Shown: positions 35,419 through 41,878 of the stretch, piece after piece | Layout: every line of letters starts with the position of its first letter | Numbering within the stretch: position 1 is the stretch's first letter | NCBI RefSeq assembly: GCF_024700885.2 | Contig: NZ_CP117016.1 | Origin: Escherichia coli | GTDB taxonomy: Bacteria > Pseudomonadota > Gammaproteobacteria > Enterobacterales > Enterobacteriaceae | Strand: one strand, 5' to 3' | Length of the DNA stretch: 64,000 bases | Translations under genes and position numbers: made by a program | Notes under the pieces: generated by a model | Databases searched by the model: none | What the model saw: only the letters and a program-made list of their open reading frames with translations | What the model was told of the DNA's origin: nothing

Positions 35419-35503
35419 GCCGAAGTGGCGAAATCGGTAGACGCAGTTGATTCAAAATCAACCGTAGAAATACGTGCCGGTTCGAGTCCGGCCTTCGGCA
35501 CCA
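35419..35503 (+). tRNA. leuX: tRNA-Leu (anticodon CAA)
   Basis: 85-nt sequence GCCGAAGTGGCGAAATCGGTAGACGCAGTTGATTCAAAATCAACC...GGTTCGAGTCCGGCCTTCGGCACCA with long variable arm and encoded CCA. Confidence 0.9.
35479..35503 (+). repeat. Island junction (attL-like): leuX 3' end, repeated at 41077-41101
   Basis: 25-bp GGTTCGAGTCCGGCCTTCGGCACCA present twice in direct orientation. Confidence 0.75.
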
Positions 35504-36016
35504 AGTCACTAAATTCCTTACAATACAGGTAGTTAGACAATAAAATCTGTCTCTTTTGCCTGTAAGAAATGCTCTGTTATGTCCCTTGAAAAAGCCGCTG
35601 TGGTTGATAGTGGTAATTGGGATGTTAACTCATAGCGGCGTGTAGTTCCAAGCGTCAAACACGTACTGACTCAACTTGAAAGCTATGACGTAGCCACTGT
35701 CTCTAAACAATCCCAAAAACTTTTAGTGAAGCGCATTTTAGCCCGATGCCCCCGTTCTGCCGCTGTCGCGAGACGCCGCAGGGGATAAACAGGTTTATGG
35801 TGGTCACGGTACTTGCAGACCATATGCAAGCTCTGCCAGCGGTTCGGCCTCGCTCCCCTTGGGTACATGGTCATCCTGATAAGCCTCACTAACTGACATA
35901 ACTGTGATGTAGTCGCCAGAGGCTCCGCTTGTTGTCTTACCACCAACGGGGCTTTATGGATTCTATTGCGGTATGTTTGAAAGTGCGCGGGGGTTCATTC
36001 CCGCGCGTCCGGCGCT

Positions 36017-36931
36017 TTATGGTAAGTATTTAAGTATTTCTGCTGCCCAGTTTACACGGTGGATGACACGGGCATGGTGCAAGTTTCCGTCTAGTATTTC
36101 GGCTTTAGTTAGCTGGGATAACTGCTGCCAATTATTGTTAAGTATATAAGTTGCGTTATTACATTGTGAGCTTTCTAGCACGTAAATGTTTTGGCCTGTG
36201 AACCCAAATATCACGTAGCCTTGGAACCCAGCTTGCCCAACCGCTACGAAATCTGGTTTTTTACTATTGATAAGTTCAAGTCTGCCTTCAACAACAGCGG
36301 TATTGCCCTTTCCCCTGATCTTAATAGCTGAAAGGATTTTTGAGCCGATAGTACTCCAAGGCTGTTGACCCTGAGGCAGGAGGCTCCAGTTTAGTTTTAT
36401 AGATTTACTTTTAACGATGGTATTAAGTTGGTCGTCAACAGTTTCGCACAACCCAAAAAGCTCTAAAAAAAGATTAATGCAGTGAGCCACTAACTCTTTG
36501 TTGTTAGCTGTCAAACTTAGCTTTGGAGAGATGATCAACTTCTCCCCTTGAAGATTCTCTACAATCTTTAACTCTATGCTTGGTGGAGGGGTGAGGATTC
36601 TCTTGTAGCGCTTATACTCAATTTCACGAGTGTCAGTAACTTCTTGAGTTGCGCCCCCTCCGATCCATTGCTTTCTAGTCCATGAAATTTGTCTGTATGC
36701 AGTTTCTTTAGGTGCTGTTTTGTCAGGTACTGATTTGCCATTAGCATTGAATCTGGTTATTGGCCCTAAAATCTTGGGGAGGACTTCTTCACCTAAAGCT
36801 CTTTGACTTGAGAAACCAATAGAGTCCGTTTTCCCCGCATCTGGCAAAGAATGTGCAATGTAGATATCACGGCCATCAAAGTTAGGTATGTAATTATCAA
36901 TATTTCGAATACGCTTTTTCTGAATAAGCAT
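36017..36931 (-). CDS. Hypothetical protein, 304 aa, no family recognised by eye
   Basis: Long ORF with SD (AAGGAA) upstream of ATG; first gene of the island next to leuX. Confidence 0.6.
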   Translation of the reverse strand: MLIQKKRIRNIDNYIPNFDGRDIYIAHSLPDAGKTDSIGFSSQRALGEEVLPKILGPITRFNANGKSVPDKTAPKETAYRQISWTRKQWIGGGATQEVTDTREIEYKRYKRILTPPPSIELKIVENLQGEKLIISPKLSLTANNKELVAHCINLFLELFGLCETVDDQLNTIVKSKSIKLNWSLLPQGQQPWSTIGSKILSAIKIRGKGNTAVVEGRLELINSKKPDFVAVGQAGFQGYVIFGFTGQNIYVLESSQCNNATYILNNNWQQLSQLTKAEILDGNLHHARVIHRVNWAAEILKYLP

Positions 36932-37058
36932 GGATCGTTCCTTTTGATTTTATCTTACTGTTTACATAACCAACCAAGCCGGGCACAATCGAGCCGTTAG
37001 AAACGATAGTGAGGCTAACAATCGTTATGAGTTTGCAGACTCATGGCGGTCATGCTTC

Positions 37059-37094
37059 ATAGACCGGATTCACGCAGGTGACTCCGGTTTTTTT
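37059..37094 (+). terminator. Orphan plus-strand intrinsic terminator
   Basis: About 10-bp stem (CCGGATTCAC / GTGACTCCGG, one mismatch), GCAG loop, followed by 7 T; no plus-strand ORF upstream. Confidence 0.5.
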
Positions 37095-37782
37095 ATGCCC
37101 ATCATTTATACATGAGCACAACATATAGGGTGTGTTAATAAGATTACCCCCTACATGTTCAGCATTCTAGTTAGGATTCTTTGCAGTACAAGGGGTGATT
37201 TTGAGGTTAAATTGAGGTTGTCAAAGGGAAATTTCGACCAACCCTACGTGCCGTAAGGCTTAGGCTGTATGTCAATGTTTCAGAAAAAAAATGAAAATTT
37301 GATCGAGTGCTGATTTCTTTAGCACGAGAACATGAGATCGAACCAAAATATTGCAAAGTTTTGAACAAAACTTGAGCTGCCTCGTGTCTCCATAGCCAAG
37401 ACGAATGCAGTTTAAATAAGCTAAGTCAGCTCTCAAAAGTCCTTTATGACCCGAACCAAAAATTGTACCTCTTAAACCCCCACCGCAAGCGGCTCTCCGG
37501 GGTTTGTGCGCGTGGAGTAATGCGATTGTACTGGGTATGTGCGCACAACCCTCTACAAGCCGCATTCTACCGTTAGCCTATAGCTGAATCCCCGGCTTGA
37601 AAAATTGCACGCTTATGGTTGCCCCTCCCTCAACTGTATAGCTCGCCCGCGCCCCCGTGCGCATGTGCGTGCCCGCGCGTCAGGGGTCGCTGAGAAAACC
37701 CTAAGATTTTGCTCATCCGAGACAACCGTTGCAGGCGCGCGTTGCCGGGGCACACTGTTAGTGTTTGATGGTGTCATCAATC

Positions 37783-37892
37783 GACCGTTTTCTGGCACCT
37801 CCCAATCGCACGCTTTCACACTGTTGGAAAAATAGCCTTGGCTTTTCTGGCAGGCCATCCTAATGTTGGCCTCGTTTTCTGGCAGGGGTCAG
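37783..37892 (+). repeat. Three direct repeats of (C)GTTTTCTGGCA upstream of the recombinase gene
   Basis: cgaccGTTTTCTGGCAcc, ggcTTTTCTGGCAgg, ctcGTTTTCTGGCAgg at about 37789, 37843 and 37875. Confidence 0.4.
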
Positions 37893-37906
37893 ATGGGGAG
37901 ATAACA

Positions 37907-38467
37907 ATGGCAACTTTTGGCTACGGACGTGTTTCGACATCGCAGCAGGATACTGAGAACCAACGGCTGGAGCTTGGGCAGGCTGGGTGGCAAATTGATT
38001 ACTGGTTTGCCGATGTTGTTAGCGGGAAGGTTCCGGCAATGCAACGTAAAGCATTTTCTGAAATGCTCAATAAAATCCGCGATGGTGAAACGTTGGTGGT
38101 AGCGAAGCTTGATCGTCTGGGGCGTGATGCGATTGACGTCCTGCAAACGGTAAGGGCGCTGGCTGACCGTAATATCAAGGTTCTTGTCCACCAGCTTGGT
38201 AACACAGATCTCACTTCTGCCGCTGGGAAGTTGCTATTATCTATGCTCGCCGCGGTTGCGGAGATGGAGCGTGATCTGCTGATTGAGCGCACTCAGGCGG
38301 GACTATCACGAGCAAAAGCCGAAGGTAAGAAATTGGGCAGACCTCCTAAAATCGCGTCAGAAGCCCGTAGAGAGATTTTAGAGAAAAAGAATAGCGGTTT
38401 GAGTATCAGTGCGTTAGCGCGTCAATATGGCGTTTCAAGAGCGACTGTAGCAGCTATTACCGATTGA
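37907..38467 (+). CDS. Small serine recombinase (resolvase/invertase family)
   Basis: 186-aa product from MATFGYGRVSTSQQD (catalytic Ser motif), C-terminal HTH; SD GGGGAG upstream. Confidence 0.85.
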   Translation: MATFGYGRVSTSQQDTENQRLELGQAGWQIDYWFADVVSGKVPAMQRKAFSEMLNKIRDGETLVVAKLDRLGRDAIDVLQTVRALADRNIKVLVHQLGNTDLTSAAGKLLLSMLAAVAEMERDLLIERTQAGLSRAKAEGKKLGRPPKIASEARREILEKKNSGLSISALARQYGVSRATVAAITD

Positions 38468-38480
38468 ATATGGAGAGTTT

Positions 38481-39326
38481 ATGGCTTACACAGCAACTGT
38501 TATCCCTGTAATGATTGCTTCTCCTGGTGATGTCGCTGAAGAGAGACAAGTCATTCGTGAAATGATCCATGAGTGGAATGATATAAATTCAGCTCGTTCA
38601 AAAGTAATGTTGACACCAATTGGATGGGAAACTCATACATCACCCGAATTAGGAGTTAGGCCTCAGAAGTTGATTAATCAAAGATTATTAGTAGATTGTG
38701 ATTTATTAATCGGTGTGTTTTGGACTCGTCTAGGCTCACCGACTGGGAACGAGGCCAGCGGAACAGTCGAAGAAATCCACCGTCATTTGAATGCGGGAAA
38801 ACCGGCAATGATTTACTTTTCCTCAAAGCCTGTTGCCCCTGAAAGCCTTGATAGAGAACAATATGAGTCTCTTAAATTGTTCAAAACTGAGTGCATGCAA
38901 AAGGGATTGATAGAGTCTTTTAATGACTTATCTGATTTCAAAGACAAAGTCCGTAGGCAACTTTCGATAATTATTTCTAGTAGCCCTTATTTGTCTTCTC
39001 TTATATCTACCATTAACAATTCTCCTGATGCGAATACAAGTCAATCTTTGCCAGAAAGTAATTTGTCCGCCGATGCACTCAGTTTGCTGAAATTGGCATG
39101 TGTCGATGATAGCGGAACAATTTATGTGATAAGGCATTTAGGTGGCACGGATATTCAAGCGGGAAATCAATCCTTTGGTGGAAGTTCGGCTAGAGAGGTA
39201 GCCCGTTGGGAGGGCGCACTTAACGAACTGTTATCCTTTGATTATGTGATTGAAAGAGGGGCAAAAGGACAAATGTATTATGTTACTCATAAAGGCTGGA
39301 CATTTCTTGAATCTTTAAATGAATAA
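38481..39326 (+). CDS. Hypothetical protein with DUF4062/TIR-like-looking N-terminal domain, Ser-rich linker and small C-terminal domain
   Basis: 281-aa ORF 14 bp after the recombinase gene; N-terminal pattern VIPVMIASPGDVAEERQ ... CDLLIGVFWTRLGSP ... GKPAMIYF; domain call is by eye only. Confidence 0.55.
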   Translation: MAYTATVIPVMIASPGDVAEERQVIREMIHEWNDINSARSKVMLTPIGWETHTSPELGVRPQKLINQRLLVDCDLLIGVFWTRLGSPTGNEASGTVEEIHRHLNAGKPAMIYFSSKPVAPESLDREQYESLKLFKTECMQKGLIESFNDLSDFKDKVRRQLSIIISSSPYLSSLISTINNSPDANTSQSLPESNLSADALSLLKLACVDDSGTIYVIRHLGGTDIQAGNQSFGGSSAREVARWEGALNELLSFDYVIERGAKGQMYYVTHKGWTFLESLNE

Positions 39327-39362
39327 TTAAATGCGAGGCCATTACATAAGTTTATTTTTGAT

Positions 39363-39391
39363 GTGAGGGTGAATTCCCTCACATTTTTATT
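39363..39391 (+). terminator. Intrinsic terminator after the recombinase/DUF4062-like gene pair
   Basis: Hairpin GTGAGGG-tgaatt-CCCTCAC followed by ATTTTTATT. Confidence 0.6.
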
Positions 39392-39881
39392 CGAAAGAGG
39401 CCGCAATGACTTCTCCTGTTTTTGCGTTGAAAACACAAAAGTATTGAAGCGGAGCTAGCATCCCCAAGCCGTTAACTACCTTAGCTTGTTGCCCAAATGC
39501 CTGAATAATCTTCGCATTCTCATCGTGCCAGAGATAAGTATTAAATACAGGCGCTTCGCTTTCTTGCCACACATGGCGAAACTTCGCTTTCTCATCCATT
39601 ACCTTTTTGCACTCCCTGACCGGGTTATGGTGCGTTTTCGCATAGCATTCCGGGTTGTCATCTGCACATACGATATCTTTTCGTGCTGTCTGATGCTCAG
39701 CACCTACAGCAGAAAAGGCGCATACGCCCAGCACCAATGAGAGAGTGCCCAGAGCACCCCATACAGTTGCGCGTAGCGTGCTGATGTGCTGCTTTGATAC
39801 AGCATGGGCAACTACACTATAACTGGCCCAGCTAATCGCGGCTCCCGCTGCAATCGGTAGTAAAAAGTCTGCTCCCGTCAT
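39387..39881 (-). CDS. Hypothetical small membrane-anchored protein (two N-terminal TM helices, Cys-containing soluble C-terminus)
   Basis: ORF 39387..39938; start preferred at Met 39881 with GAGGG SD; no family recognised. Confidence 0.5.
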   Translation of the reverse strand: MTGADFLLPIAAGAAISWASYSVVAHAVSKQHISTLRATVWGALGTLSLVLGVCAFSAVGAEHQTARKDIVCADDNPECYAKTHHNPVRECKKVMDEKAKFRHVWQESEAPVFNTYLWHDENAKIIQAFGQQAKVVNGLGMLAPLQYFCVFNAKTGEVIAASFE

Positions 39882-40121
39882 GATTCCCTCACTTTCCAAA
39901 CCACATCGCGCCTGATAGCGAACGCTGGTGACGCCCAACCGATGATGATCATCATACTTGTTGGGTTTTAAATGTCACCATTGGTGTTTGTTTTGAATCA
40001 AAAAGGATTGTCATGATACAGCCGATGAATGCTAGTGACTAAGCTCGCTGACGTGAGATTGGATTCAAAATATCTCATATGGAGCGTGGCCTTACAGTGG
40101 TCAAAATTGCACATTCAGTGC

Positions 40122-40586
40122 ATGAAAAAATCCCTGAGAATACAGTTTGGCGAGCGGGTAAAAGAACTGCGCATTGCCACCGGATTGAGCCAGGAGGCCT
40201 TTGCCGATCGGTGCGGGTTTGCACGTAGTTATATGAGCAGAATTGAACGTGGTGGCTCTAATGCGTCTCTGGATGCGATTGAGGTGCTGGCTAACGCTCT
40301 GAGCGTTGAGCCGTGGCAGTTGTTAGCGCCTGGCCCATCTGAAGATAACGACTCGGAACTGTTGGTTCCATACGCAGCCGATGGTTCCTGTTTTCACCCC
40401 GGTTTGGCGAGCACCCGTGATGGCTCGTTTGGCGTAGGTGATAAAGCGGCTCAGAAGCGTTTTGGCACGTTTGCTGAAGCTCTTGAGTATCTTCGTAGCA
40501 TGGAGACAGCAAAATGGCGTAGGCCTAATCCTAGCGGCAACTGGGGTATCGTATCAGCGGTTCGGTGGGACAAACTGAGAAAGTAG
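40122..40586 (+). CDS. XRE-family HTH transcriptional regulator with about 90-aa C-terminal extension
   Basis: Cro/C1-type HTH (LRIATGLSQEAFADRCGFARSYMSRIERG); divergent from the membrane protein gene. Confidence 0.65.
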   Translation: MKKSLRIQFGERVKELRIATGLSQEAFADRCGFARSYMSRIERGGSNASLDAIEVLANALSVEPWQLLAPGPSEDNDSELLVPYAADGSCFHPGLASTRDGSFGVGDKAAQKRFGTFAEALEYLRSMETAKWRRPNPSGNWGIVSAVRWDKLRK

Positions 40587-41076
40587 CTCAAGTGTAAGTT
40601 TATGAATTTTCATGCTGTATGGATGAACAGTATTCATTAGATGCTGATAGTCTTATGTTTCATCAGCCCTTTGTTTCTATAAGAGTGAATAAAACAGCAA
40701 AATGCGGGTGCGTTACGTAGGCGTTACGGTGGCGTTTCGCTTTGGCTCTTAATGGCTTAATTCATATAAATAACATTGAGTTAAATAGTTATTCTGAACA
40801 AGGTCTGCCGGGGTCTAACTGGTTTCAAAATCCGAACGCAGTGGCGTTTATTCAACGTCCACATAGCTGACAAATGTTCTTTCCTCCCGACTCGGCAGAC
40901 CTCCAGAAACATTAAAAGGCAGGTATGGCACGTTGATGTTTTATGCCGCCACGAACACTCGGTTTGATTCCGTCCAGCGGATCAAACTTAATATGTAGCC
41001 CCTAGAACAAAAAGGTCCTACGATTGCTCTCTTAACAGCTAACAGGAACGTGATTACAGCAGGTTATAGAGACTTA

Positions 41077-41101
41077 GGTTCGAGTCCGGCCTTCGGCACC
41101 A
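41077..41101 (+). repeat. Island junction (attR-like): displaced copy of the leuX 3' end
   Basis: Second copy of GGTTCGAGTCCGGCCTTCGGCACCA, followed by the expected tRNA terminator hairpin. Confidence 0.75.
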
Positions 41102-41114
41102 AAAGTATGTAAAT

Positions 41115-41287: not shown

Positions 41288-41878
41288 ATGGCATTAACAG
41301 ATATCAAAGTCAGAGCAGCCAAGCCAACGGATAAGCAATATAAGCTGACTGATGGTGGCGGTATGCATCTGCTTGTCCATCCAAATGGTTCTAAGTACTG
41401 GCGTTTGCAGTACCGTTATGAGGGAAAGCAAAAAATGCTGGCACTTGGGGTTTATCCTGAAATCACACTAGCGGATGCCAGAGTACGTCGTGACGAGGCG
41501 CGTAAGCTGCTTGCGAATGGCGTCGATCCGGGAGACAAAAAGAAAAATGATAAGGTTGAACAGAGTAAAGCACGAACCTTTAAAGAAGTCGCGATTGAGT
41601 GGCATGGCACCAATAAAAAGTGGTCTGAAGATCACGCCCATCGTGTGCTAAAAAGTCTTGAAGATAATCTTTTTGCAGCGCTTGGTGAACGTAATATCGC
41701 TGAGTTAAAAACTCGAGATTTATTAGCACCTATTGTTCCTTTAACCATCCGCAATGGCCAACGGTTTACAGAGCATAATACGAATAGCCGTAGAGCCAGC
41801 CAGTTACGGTGGTCGCGATGGTGTGTCCGCCAGAAAATCACCACGAATACCAGAATCGCGGCACTGACCAGAAAATGA
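41288..41878 (+). pseudogene. P4-type tyrosine integrase, N-terminal fragment (truncated or frameshifted after about 150 aa)
   Basis: N-terminus MALTDIKVRAAKPTDKQYKLTDGGGMHLLVHPNGSKYWRLQYRYEGKQK is typical of P4-family integrases; the catalytic domain is absent. Confidence 0.75.

What the first reader, a model, noticed from the sequence alone, without database searches (positions are those of the whole stretch)
39387..40586. Divergent pair: small membrane protein and XRE regulator with a C-terminal extension
A 164-aa protein with two predicted TM helices and a Cys-containing soluble tail is encoded divergently from an XRE-HTH regulator that has an extra C-terminal domain of about 90 aa. The 240-bp intergenic region has repeated GAATCAAAA / GATTCAAAA motifs that could be operators. 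The pair could be an addiction, exclusion or sensor module belonging to the island.
Basis: inference. Interest (0 to 1): 0.4.

Follow-up and report, generated by a model that had tools for sequence, protein, structure and literature searches.

The report
Controller-type regulator beside an exported membrane protein
A regulator closely related to the "controller" proteins of restriction systems, carrying an extra uncharacterised domain, sits back-to-back with a small periplasm-facing membrane protein at the far end of a tRNA-inserted defence island; the pair is real and conserved, but what the membrane protein does is still unknown.

Summary
A 164-aa protein with two membrane helices (39387-39881, minus strand) and a 154-aa XRE-HTH protein (40122-40586, plus strand) face away from each other across 240 bp that carry the repeats described.

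The pair is not a free-standing module. It is the conserved right end of a 5.6-kb islet flanked by 26-bp repeats of the leuX 3' end. That islet is a degraded copy of an island family found in Enterobacterales, Pantoea and Pseudomonas. The family's order is tRNA, 640-aa integrase, cargo, small serine recombinase, cargo, partner gene facing the regulator, then attR.

The regulator's HTH is 47% identical to the restriction-modification controller C.AhdI. Its C-terminal 75 aa form a separate domain with no Pfam, NCBIfam or PDB match. That domain occurs in 537 protein clusters, alone or fused to ASCH, RNase T, YjiT-like and probably RHH regions.

Comparison of related loci shows a strong conserved promoter for the membrane gene, with an operator-like element over its -35. 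A second copy lies about 44 bp upstream of the regulator's start codon, which has no Shine-Dalgarno sequence.

The most likely reading is a controller-type switch that represses or times an envelope protein. A toxin-antitoxin pair is unlikely. The function of the membrane protein was not resolved.

The parts
39387..39881 (-). MEM: gene for a 164-aa membrane protein (ATG at 39881; the stop codon is included in the range)
   Evidence: ORF. RefSeq CDS WP_001724296.1. Full-length match to phrog_20749, E 5e-102, function unknown. The family has 144-155 clusters, all named examples from Enterobacterales and about 165 aa long. dN/dS 0.13-0.29.
39699..39866 (-). Membrane hairpin of MEM (helices at about residues 6-24 and 43-61, with a short +2 loop between them)
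   Evidence: Hydropathy and charge counts. AlphaFold helices 7-29 and 33-63. By the positive-inside rule the loop is cytoplasmic and both ends are periplasmic; this is an inference.
39390..39653 (-). C-terminal alpha+beta domain of MEM (residues 77-164) with conserved Cys79, Cys91 and Cys149 (Cys72 just before it); predicted to be periplasmic
39951..39978 (-). Promoter of MEM: -35 GTGACA (39978-39973), 16-bp spacer, -10 TATGAT (39956-39951)
   Evidence: Matches 10 of 12 consensus positions. Column identity across 11 loci is 1.0 for the -10 and 0.985 for the -35. The O157 variant uses the same -35/16/-10 layout for a different partner gene.
39886..39890 (-). Shine-Dalgarno sequence GAGGG, 4 nt before the MEM start codon
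   Evidence: Read directly from the sequence. Conserved in the alignment.
39969..39985 (+). Site A: operator-like element AAATGTCACCATTGGTG. It contains the palindrome CACCA-T-TGGTG and overlaps the -35 of the MEM promoter.
   Evidence: Column identity 0.914. In relatives a 15-nt run, AAATGTCACTATTGG, is identical between site A (L007) and site B (L003).
39990..39999 (+). Box 1: GTTTTGAATC (ATTTTGAATC in most orthologs)
   Evidence: Inverted partner of box 2. Column identity 0.973. In plasmids IS1 is inserted at its right edge.
40062..40071 (+). Box 2: GATTCAAAAT. It marks the left edge of the block that travels with the regulator when the partner gene differs.
   Evidence: Column identity 0.982. 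Homology with the O157 variant begins exactly at 40062.
40068..40089 (+). Site B: AAATATCTCATATGGAGCGTGG, a second copy of the operator-like element, centred about 44 bp upstream of the regulator's ATG
   Evidence: Column identity 0.967. The core AAAatgTCaC..ATTgGAGCGTGG is kept upstream of regulator homologs in O157, a faecal contig, Pseudomonas and Pantoea.
40087..40115 (+). Putative promoter of the regulator: -35-like TGGCCT (40087-40092), 17-bp spacer, -10-like CACATT (40110-40115), ending 6 nt before the ATG. There is no Shine-Dalgarno sequence, which suggests a leaderless mRNA.
   Evidence: Inference. The 32 bp before the ATG keep 0.969 column identity. CA[AC]AT[TAC] sits at a fixed distance from the ATG in five divergent loci. 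C.AhdI has the same layout: -35 TGGACT, 18 bp, -10 TGTAAT, leaderless mRNA (PMC2275141). The consensus promoter scan did not find it.
40122..40586 (+). REG: gene for a 154-aa regulator (the stop codon is included in the range)
   Evidence: ORF. RefSeq CDS WP_000749342.1. 443 homolog clusters, reaching Pseudomonas and Azoarcus at about 60% identity over the full length. dN/dS 0.05-0.09.
40134..40322 (+). HTH domain of REG (residues 5-67), of the restriction-modification controller type
40362..40577 (+). C-terminal domain of REG (residues 81-152; three strands, a helix, three strands). Motif: VPxAxDG..F..(20)..VGxKG....F..FxEAL..L..M..AxWRRPN..GNWGIV.AV.W
   Evidence: pLDDT about 90, joined to the HTH by a disordered linker at residues 68-80. 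No Pfam, NCBIfam or PDB sequence match. Found in 537 clusters at 50% identity in several different domain architectures.
39360..39385 (+). GC-rich hairpin between the converging ends of the DUF4062 gene and MEM; probably a terminator working in both directions
   Evidence: Terminator-like site: 10-bp stem followed by a T run.
40707..40739 (+). Three tandem 11-bp repeats, GGTGCGTTAC-G / TAGGCGTTAC-G / GTGGCGTTTC, at the end of the conserved block downstream of REG
   Evidence: Conserved in 13 of 15 aligned loci. Related GCGTTAC/GCGTCAC repeats lie near both ends of the island in L002. They may be integrase arm-type sites; this is an inference.
35479..35504 (+). attL: 26-bp direct repeat made of the 3' end of tRNA-Leu(CAA)
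41077..41102 (+). attR: second copy of the 26-bp repeat, 491 bp downstream of REG
   Evidence: The same repeat follows REG in L003, L006, L020, L030 and L031.
37907..38467 (+). Small serine recombinase, a backbone gene of the island. The conserved left block is about 37770-38463.
   Evidence: 73-92% identical in related loci.
38481..39326 (+). Variable cargo gene: a DUF4062 protein resembling PDC-S60
   Evidence: Pfam DUF4062 at 8.9e-5. PADLOC PDC-S60 at 1.3e-26. This slot holds other genes in other loci.

Best explanation
REG is a controller-type (C-protein-like) transcription switch that belongs to the backbone of a tRNA-inserted island carrying defence genes. MEM is the accessory gene it controls in this copy.

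Proposed mechanism:
- A REG dimer binds the repeated element AAATGTCAC.ATTGG.G.
- At site A it covers the -35 of a strong sigma-70 promoter and represses MEM.
- At site B, about 44 bp upstream of its own probably leaderless start, it regulates itself, as C.AhdI does.
- MEM would therefore be made in a burst whenever REG is scarce or inactive, for example just after the island enters a new cell or when a signal acts on REG's extra C-terminal domain. At steady state MEM would be held low.

MEM itself is a membrane hairpin that displays a disulfide-stabilised alpha+beta domain in the periplasm. I think it most likely protects the envelope, as a superinfection-exclusion or immunity type of protein, rather than acting as a toxin.

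Shown here: gene structures, domain relationships, conservation of the pair, conserved promoter and operator-like elements, and swapping of the partner gene.

Inferred only: DNA binding, the direction of regulation, the leaderless start, the membrane topology and MEM's role.

For: Promoter and operator evidence.
- The MEM promoter matches 10 of 12 consensus positions, and both hexamers are conserved.
- Site A overlaps its -35. Site B is a second copy at the position where C.AhdI's activating site lies, near -44.
- REG has no Shine-Dalgarno sequence and has a conserved CA[AC]AT[TAC] 6 nt before the ATG in five divergent loci.
- In O157 a single hybrid site carries the -35 of a different divergent gene. 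The regulator and operator therefore behave as a cassette that drives whatever gene sits opposite.

Link to restriction enzymes. In plasmids and in L022, REG is followed 170 bp downstream by a DUF6998 protein. This protein matches PADLOC's methyl-directed type II restriction enzyme model at 1.7e-70, giving a controller-then-nuclease gene order.

Conservation of the pair. It is intact in 10 of 12 full loci from the genome scan and in 478 E. coli genomes.

Island context. The cargo slots hold defence-type genes: one AAA ATPase plus UvrD-helicase pair (L021, L023), OLD-like, AAA_13, and DUF4062/PDC-S60.

MEM.
- The charge distribution predicts both ends in the periplasm, and four cysteines are conserved.
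- The fold weakly resembles cystatin and NTF2 folds, including the membrane-anchored periplasmic colicin M immunity protein and VirB8-type domains.
- Four of the five kinds of partner gene opposite REG, MEM included, encode exported or membrane-anchored proteins.
Against: - No binding or expression data exist.
- The operator-like elements lack the GACT...AGTC symmetry I recall for controller-protein binding sites, and their own symmetry is weak.
- The regulator's promoter was not found by the consensus scan.
- REG is twice the size of a controller protein, and in this window no gene follows it.
- The fold matches for MEM are weak and generic (Z no higher than 6.5, from a model with mean pLDDT 69).
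- MEM has no match in PADLOC or among predicted viral protein structures.
- The Pantoea partner gene encodes a cytoplasmic protein, so "envelope cargo" is not a rule.
- A strong promoter held shut by a repressor fits an inducible harmful effector as well as it fits a protective factor.
Confidence: 0.5

Rival explanations
1. Inducible abortive-infection or sensor module. REG keeps MEM tightly shut off. REG's C-terminal domain senses a phage-derived or stress-derived molecule and releases the operator. The resulting burst of MEM damages the membrane or otherwise arrests the cell.
For: - A strong promoter and a strong Shine-Dalgarno sequence sit under an operator.
- The C-terminal domain is an independent module. 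It is attached to an XRE-HTH or (apparently, judged by eye) an RHH DNA-binding region, and also to ASCH, RNase T and YjiT-like proteins, as expected of a sensor in conflict systems.
- The island carries defence cargo.
- Known regulators with an HTH plus a sensor domain, such as CapH and Stl, work this way (established knowledge; their HTH domains appear among the matches).
Against: - The conserved part of MEM is the periplasmic domain with its cysteines, not the membrane helices. This is unusual for a pore-forming or holin-like effector.
- MEM survives with its promoter in plasmids where IS1 elements have separated it from REG, and in at least one plasmid with no REG on the same replicon.
- No ligand or trigger is known.
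Confidence: 0.2
2. REG is the island's master repressor for excision or transfer, comparable to SaPI Stl or ICEBs1 ImmR. MEM is a passenger gene that happens to share the intergenic region.
For: - REG is a backbone gene, more conserved than MEM (87-93% against 58-83% identity).
- It is the last gene before attR, next to conserved 11-bp tandem repeats that look like integrase arm sites.
- It combines an HTH with a possible sensor domain.
Against: - The boxes and sites were not found upstream of the serine recombinase or elsewhere in the window. The only other exact match lies inside the tRNA gene.
- The island has no replication, packaging or excisionase genes for REG to control.
- The operator-like element overlaps the promoter of the partner gene, not that of a recombinase.
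Confidence: 0.12
3. Toxin-antitoxin or addiction pair: MEM is a small membrane toxin and REG its antitoxin and repressor.
For: XRE-HTH proteins are common antitoxins (weak HipB, MqsA and PezA matches to the HTH alone). MEM is a small membrane protein on a mobile element.
Against: - The genes are divergent, not co-transcribed.
- REG pairs with five unrelated partners, and the L010 locus has MEM without REG beside it.
- In plasmids an IS1-flanked segment separates the two genes.
- MEM's selective constraint lies on its periplasmic domain.
- There is no match to any toxin family.
Confidence: 0.06
4. Two unrelated neighbouring genes with no regulatory link. The conserved intergenic blocks would be only their separate promoters.
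For: No experimental link exists. In this window the repeat alone is weakly significant: 6% of simulated sequences have one as good.
Against: - The same operator-like element occurs at both promoters.
- In O157 the two copies are merged into one site shared by both promoters.
- Spacing and orientation are kept at synonymous divergence of up to about 1.5 substitutions per site.
Confidence: 0.08

Closest known systems
Restriction-modification controller (C) proteins such as C.AhdI, C.BclI, C.PvuII and C.Esp1396I, and their control regions
   Same: - The HTH domain is 47% identical to C.AhdI.
- A conserved operator-like block lies just upstream of the regulator's own gene, at the positions where C.AhdI's sites lie (-44 and -29).
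- The -35 is of the TGG type, and there is no Shine-Dalgarno sequence, suggesting a leaderless mRNA.
- In some C-regulated restriction-modification systems, bound C protein occludes the methylase promoter; here the divergent MEM gene sits in the position such a repressed gene would occupy.
- In some copies a restriction-enzyme-like gene follows the regulator.
   Different: - REG is 154 aa, not 70-100 aa, and carries a 75-aa C-terminal domain that no controller protein has.
- No methyltransferase is present.
- In this window no nuclease follows REG.
- The operator lacks GACT...AGTC symmetry.
- The controlled gene encodes a membrane protein.
Other regulators of defence loci: CapH/CapP (CBASS), BrxR/CapW (WYL type) and RptR
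   Different: No CapP-type protease lies nearby. The C-terminal domain is unrelated to WYL domains or to RptR. The controlled gene is not a known defence system.
Master repressors of mobile islands that combine an HTH with a sensor domain (SaPI Stl, ICEBs1 ImmR)
   Different: The divergent gene here is not an excision or replication gene. There is no ImmA-type protease. No similarity extends beyond the HTH.
Membrane-anchored periplasmic protective proteins: colicin M immunity protein Cmi and prophage superinfection-exclusion proteins
   Different: There is no sequence similarity. The fold match is generic, and cystatin and NTF2 folds score higher. MEM has two membrane helices rather than one. 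No bacteriocin or phage partner is known.
"Integrase-only" defence islands of E. coli (Hochhauser 2023, PMC10121019) and defence loci linked to serine recombinases (Andersen 2025, PMC12632615)
   Same: tRNA-inserted islets with an integrase, a small serine recombinase and variable defence cargo, and no known transfer genes.
   Different: Term searches of these papers found no mention of an XRE or helix-turn-helix regulator (PMC12632615), and the passages read from PMC10121019 describe no such backbone: 640-aa DUF6538-type integrase, NIPSNAP protein, recombinase, membrane protein and regulator.

Membership tests
Restriction-modification controller (C) protein | Dimeric XRE-type HTH domain of the C.AhdI / C.PvuII kind | tested here: met
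Restriction-modification controller (C) protein | Small single-domain protein of about 70-100 aa | tested here: not met
   REG is 154 aa, with a second folded domain at residues 81-152.
Restriction-modification controller (C) protein | Gene lies just upstream of a restriction endonuclease gene and is transcribed with it | tested here: not met
   In the window, 491 bp without a gene follow REG up to attR. In plasmids and L022 a DUF6998 protein matching the methyl-directed restriction enzyme model follows after 170 bp. Co-transcription was not tested.
Restriction-modification controller (C) protein | Paired palindromic binding sites (C-boxes) overlapping the -35 of its own promoter | tested here: inconclusive
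   Conserved blocks lie at the equivalent positions (positions from PMC2275141). Their symmetry is weak, of the form CAC-N5-G[TA]G, and is not GACT...AGTC.
Restriction-modification controller (C) protein | Activates and then represses its own promoter; leaderless mRNA | not testable with these tools
   The only support is the absence of a Shine-Dalgarno sequence and a conserved -10-like hexamer 6 nt before the ATG.
Type II toxin-antitoxin pair with an XRE antitoxin | Toxin and antitoxin transcribed together in one operon | tested here: not met
   The genes are divergent and 240 bp apart.
Type II toxin-antitoxin pair with an XRE antitoxin | The two genes always occur together, and the toxin belongs to a recognisable family | tested here: not met
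   REG occurs with five unrelated partners, and the L010 locus has MEM without REG beside it. MEM matches no toxin family.
Superinfection-exclusion or immunity protein | Located in the envelope, facing the periplasm | tested here: inconclusive
   The charge distribution and four conserved cysteines predict both ends in the periplasm. There is no experimental topology.
Superinfection-exclusion or immunity protein | Blocks entry of phage DNA or neutralises a toxin acting in the periplasm | not testable with these tools
   No homolog has a known function.
Colicin M immunity protein (Cmi) | Sequence or specific fold similarity to Cmi, and linkage to a colicin M gene | tested here: not met
CapH-type regulator | An adjacent CapP metalloprotease that cleaves the regulator | tested here: not met
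   No protease gene was found in any of the contexts examined.

The most novel reading that the evidence does not exclude
The 75-aa C-terminal domain (core motif WRRPN..GNWG) may be a previously undescribed sensor domain of bacterial conflict systems. Fused to a controller-type HTH, it would make REG a one-protein switch that detects an infection or arrival signal and releases a strong promoter for interchangeable effectors, most of them envelope proteins. The surrounding 7.7-11 kb tRNA islands (DUF6538-type integrase, cargo, serine recombinase, cargo, partner gene, REG) would then be an unrecognised class of minimal defence-carrying elements with a built-in expression controller. MEM would be a new envelope-level defence or immunity protein.
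Probability: 0.2. Interest if true: 0.7.

Novelty: new variant of a known kind. Interest (0 to 1): 0.45.

Why it matters
Little is known about how defence islands regulate their cargo, or about how "integrase-only" islands are organised. This locus offers three things that can be tested directly.

- A controller-type regulator that has left restriction-modification systems and acquired a second domain. That domain is widespread (537 clusters at 50% identity), has no entry in Pfam, NCBIfam or the PDB, and is also fused to ASCH, RNase T and YjiT-like proteins.
- A compact promoter-operator cassette that drives interchangeable partner genes.
- A tightly conserved family of periplasm-facing proteins, restricted to Enterobacterales and present in about 9% of complete E. 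coli genomes, with no known function.

If MEM blocks phage, plasmid or bacteriocin entry, it would be a new single-gene envelope defence. If it does not, the pair is still a useful marker for the right-hand end of this island family.

Tried and rejected
- **AP2-like or integrase-arm idea.** From memory, the domain looked like an AP2 or integrase arm-binding domain. hhalign against the N-terminal domains of the P4-type integrase and the DUF6538 integrase gave probabilities below 1%, so I dropped the idea.
- **Distant relatives of MEM.** A profile of the periplasmic domain returned only the same 155 clusters. The predicted viral structure library gave no match at E <= 1e-3. tblastn against phage genomes found nothing, despite the PHROG match.
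- **All partner genes are exported.** This fails for the Pantoea Rv1289-like protein, which is cytoplasmic.
- **The virome contig MT836560 as an excised island.** It is an integrated copy flanked by 23-bp repeats within chromosomal DNA.
- **RptR as a relative of REG.** It is unrelated.
- **The repeats on their own statistics.** The single-sequence statistics are weak. The 10-mer is not enriched in the window. The case for the repeats rests on conservation across loci.
Full report
**Observation**

The window is E. coli chromosome around leuX, the tRNA-Leu(CAA) gene at 35419-35503. The two ORFs are as described. MEM runs 39387-39881 on the minus strand and encodes 164 aa from the ATG. REG runs 40122-40586 on the plus strand and encodes 154 aa. 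RefSeq annotates the same genes.

MEM has two hydrophobic segments (residues 6-24 and 43-61) joined by a short loop with +2 charge. Four cysteines in the tail are conserved.

REG has an XRE-type HTH at residues 8-63 and a second folded domain at about residues 81-152.

They form a 12-nt inverted repeat that is 92% complementary. In a single sequence this is weak evidence: 6% of simulated 240-mers contain an equally good one.

Both genes are under purifying selection, with dN/dS of 0.13-0.29 for MEM and 0.05-0.09 for REG.

**Context: the pair is the right end of an island**

The sequence from 35505 to 41076 is bounded by a 26-bp direct repeat of the tRNA's 3' end, at 35479-35504 and 41077-41102. 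Inside it lie an unknown 304-aa gene, a small serine recombinase, a DUF4062 protein resembling PDC-S60, then MEM and REG.

I scanned one genome per species with the MEM family and compared the loci by tblastn and blastn. This revealed a conserved frame: a left block of about 37770-38463 (the recombinase), a right block of 39387 to about 40737 (MEM and REG), and between them 0.17-2.4 kb of variable cargo.

Complete copies have a common order:
- the tRNA gene (Leu, or Gly in some; one locus has a tRNA-Thr gene beside the regulator end);
- an integrase of about 640 aa with DUF6538 and Phage_integrase domains;
- a NIPSNAP protein;
- cargo, such as one AAA ATPase plus UvrD-helicase pair (L021, L023), OLD-like, AAA_13 or DUF1643;
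- the serine recombinase;
- more cargo;
- the partner gene and REG, facing away from each other;
- attR.

The family reaches Pantoea, where the island is 7.7 kb and uses the same leuX repeat, and Pseudomonas syringae.

The window's copy has lost the integrase and the NIPSNAP gene.

Islands with an integrase but no known means of transfer have been noted in E. coli (PMC10121019). Small serine recombinases have been proposed as markers of defence loci (PMC12632615). Term searches of those two papers turned up no description of this backbone.

**The regulator**

After a disordered linker (residues 68-80) comes a confident domain of three strands, a helix and three more strands. It matches nothing in Pfam, NCBIfam or PDB sequences.

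A profile of this domain finds 537 clusters at 50% identity. Among the 146 best matches:
- 22 are the domain alone (about 80-110 aa);
- 114 carry it at the C-terminus of a longer protein;
- about 8 carry it at the N-terminus.

Its fusion partners include ASCH, RNase T, a YjiT/STY4851-family region and, judged by eye, an RHH-like region.

It therefore behaves as an independent module of conflict-related proteins. A sensor or an oligomerisation role are both plausible, and neither was tested.

**The intergenic region**

Aligning the intergenic region from 11 loci shows which parts are constrained. Column identities are:

| Element | Column identity |
|---|---|
| MEM promoter -10 (TATGAT) | 1.0 |
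| MEM promoter -35 (GTGACA; 16-bp spacer, 10/12 consensus match) | 0.985 |
| Box 1 | 0.97 |
| Box 2 | 0.98 |
| Site B | 0.967 |
| Last 32 bp before REG's ATG | 0.969 |
| 58-bp spacer between the boxes | 0.71 |

Besides the inverted 10-mers there is a direct repeat of about 17 bp, AAATGTCACyATTGGwG. Site A (39969-39985) overlaps the -35 of the MEM promoter. Site B (40068-40084) is centred about 44 bp upstream of REG's ATG.

In relatives a 15-nt run is identical between site A and site B.

In O157:H7 the two sites are merged into one. That single site still supplies a GTGACA -35, with 16-bp spacing to a TATGAT -10, for a different divergent gene.

The core AAAatgTCaC..ATTgGAGCGTGG, and a CA[AC]AT[TAC] hexamer 6 nt before the ATG, persist upstream of REG homologs in O157, a faecal contig, Pseudomonas and Pantoea. 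REG has no Shine-Dalgarno sequence, whereas MEM has GAGGG.

This layout parallels C.AhdI. That system has a leaderless mRNA, a TGGACT -35 (REG has TGGCCT), binding sites at -44 and -29, and a promoter that is inactive without the controller protein (PMC2275141).

**Swappable partners**

The gene opposite REG varies:
- MEM in most Enterobacterales;
- a 257-aa protein with a signal peptide, plus a 438-aa protein, in O157;
- two small proteins with signal peptides in MT836560;
- a 211-aa cysteine-rich protein with an N-terminal anchor in Pseudomonas;
- a cytoplasmic Rv1289-family protein in Pantoea.

Downstream of REG, plasmids and one chromosome carry a DUF6998 protein. It matches PADLOC's methyl-directed type II restriction enzyme model at 1.7e-70, so the gene order there is controller followed by nuclease.

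In plasmid p65COLEC-2, a segment of about 5 kb flanked by IS1 elements is inserted at the edge of box 1, with an 8-bp target duplication.

**The membrane protein**

The family is tight: 144-155 clusters, about 165 aa each, all named examples from Enterobacterales, and none with a name.

Selective constraint sits on the C-terminal domain (dN/dS about 0.05-0.14). The membrane helices are less constrained. The 14-residue stretch next to the membrane has dN equal to or above dS in most comparisons.

**Interpretation**

The best reading is a controller-type switch that belongs to the island backbone. REG would repress a strong divergent promoter through site A and regulate itself through site B, so MEM would be produced when REG is scarce or inactive.

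I favour a protective envelope role for MEM, at about one chance in three. An inducible harmful effector is the main rival.

A toxin-antitoxin pair is unlikely, given the divergent genes, the interchangeable partners and the copies in which the two genes are separated. The rival that REG controls island excision lacks any operator near a recombinase gene.

**Novelty**

The regulator is a new variant of a known kind: a controller-type HTH with an undescribed extra domain, controlling genes that are not part of a restriction-modification system. MEM is an uncharacterised family.

The island backbone was not described in the papers I could search.

Noticed in passing
window 35479-35504 and 41077-41102: A 26-bp direct repeat of the tRNA-Leu 3' end bounds a 5.6-kb islet. 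A second island follows in tandem, starting with a truncated P4-type integrase gene at 41288. The islet has lost its own integrase.
   Followed up: yes
L006, L008, L009, L012, L016, L021/L023, L026-L031 (related loci): A conserved island family of 7.7-11 kb: tRNA, then a roughly 640-aa integrase (DUF6538 + Phage_integrase), NIPSNAP protein, cargo, small serine recombinase, cargo, partner gene facing REG, then attR. Cargo includes one AAA ATPase plus UvrD-helicase pair (L021, L023), OLD-like, AAA_13 and DUF1643 genes. I found no description of this family in the papers searched.
   Followed up: partly
window 35449-35458 compared with 40062-40071: Box 2 (GATTCAAAAT) is identical to the anticodon arm of the leuX tRNA gene 4.6 kb upstream. 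These are the only two exact matches in 64 kb. It is probably coincidence, because the box is also conserved in islands inserted at tRNA-Gly genes.
   Followed up: partly
window 40707-40739: Three tandem 11-bp repeats (GGTGCGTTAC / TAGGCGTTAC / GTGGCGTTTC) end the conserved block downstream of REG. They are conserved in 13 of 15 aligned loci. Similar GCGTTAC/GCGTCAC repeats lie near both ends of the island in L002, so they may be integrase arm-type sites.
   Followed up: partly
window 37789-37885: TTTTCTGGCA occurs three times upstream of the serine recombinase start, within the conserved left block. These may be binding sites for the recombinase or for a regulator.
   Followed up: no
window 38481-39326: The cargo gene between the recombinase and MEM encodes a 281-aa DUF4062 protein. 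Its N-terminal 160 aa match the PADLOC candidate PDC-S60 (1.3e-26). Its C-terminal half matches nothing.
   Followed up: partly
L004 6764-7636; L022 7698-8576: The DUF6998 protein encoded 170 bp downstream of REG in plasmids and in one chromosome matches PADLOC's methyl-directed type II restriction enzyme model at 1.7e-70. No searchable paper mentions DUF6998.
   Followed up: partly
P0243, P0245, P0255, P0273, P0381, P0251/P0254 (proteins carrying REG's C-terminal domain): The C-terminal domain of REG also occurs alone and fused to ASCH, RNase T, a YjiT/STY4851-family region and an RHH-like region. One ASCH fusion lies next to an SNF2 helicase and a DUF2130 gene (L025).
   Followed up: partly
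window 39654-39695 (MEM residues 63-76): The 14-residue stretch between the second membrane helix and the periplasmic domain is hypervariable. In two comparisons dN is 0.74 against dS of 0.06. This could reflect recombination or diversifying selection.
   Followed up: partly
window 39908-39925: A small dyad in the MEM 5' untranslated region (CGC-CTGATA-GCG) changes to CAC...GTG in L012, L014 and L016. This looks like a compensatory change, so the dyad may be an RNA hairpin or a further protein-binding site.
   Followed up: no
plasmid hits H91-H102: About 29 E. coli plasmids carry only the last 172 nt of REG (the C-terminal domain part) at 88% identity, mostly unannotated. This is either a remnant or a stand-alone copy of the domain.
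   Followed up: no
L006 (JAIJJM010000048.1) and L002 (MT836560.1): A contig filed under a Collinsella MAG is 99-100% identical to E. coli leuX-island DNA, so it is probably a binning error. A contig deposited as "Bacteriophage sp." is a chromosomal fragment with an integrated island of this family flanked by 23-bp repeats, not a phage.
   Followed up: partly
window 36017-36931: A 304-aa ORF on the minus strand between leuX and the recombinase matches nothing in Pfam, PADLOC, NCBIfam or PHROGs. It is unrelated to the equally long gene found downstream of REG in L014, L016 and L021.
   Followed up: partly
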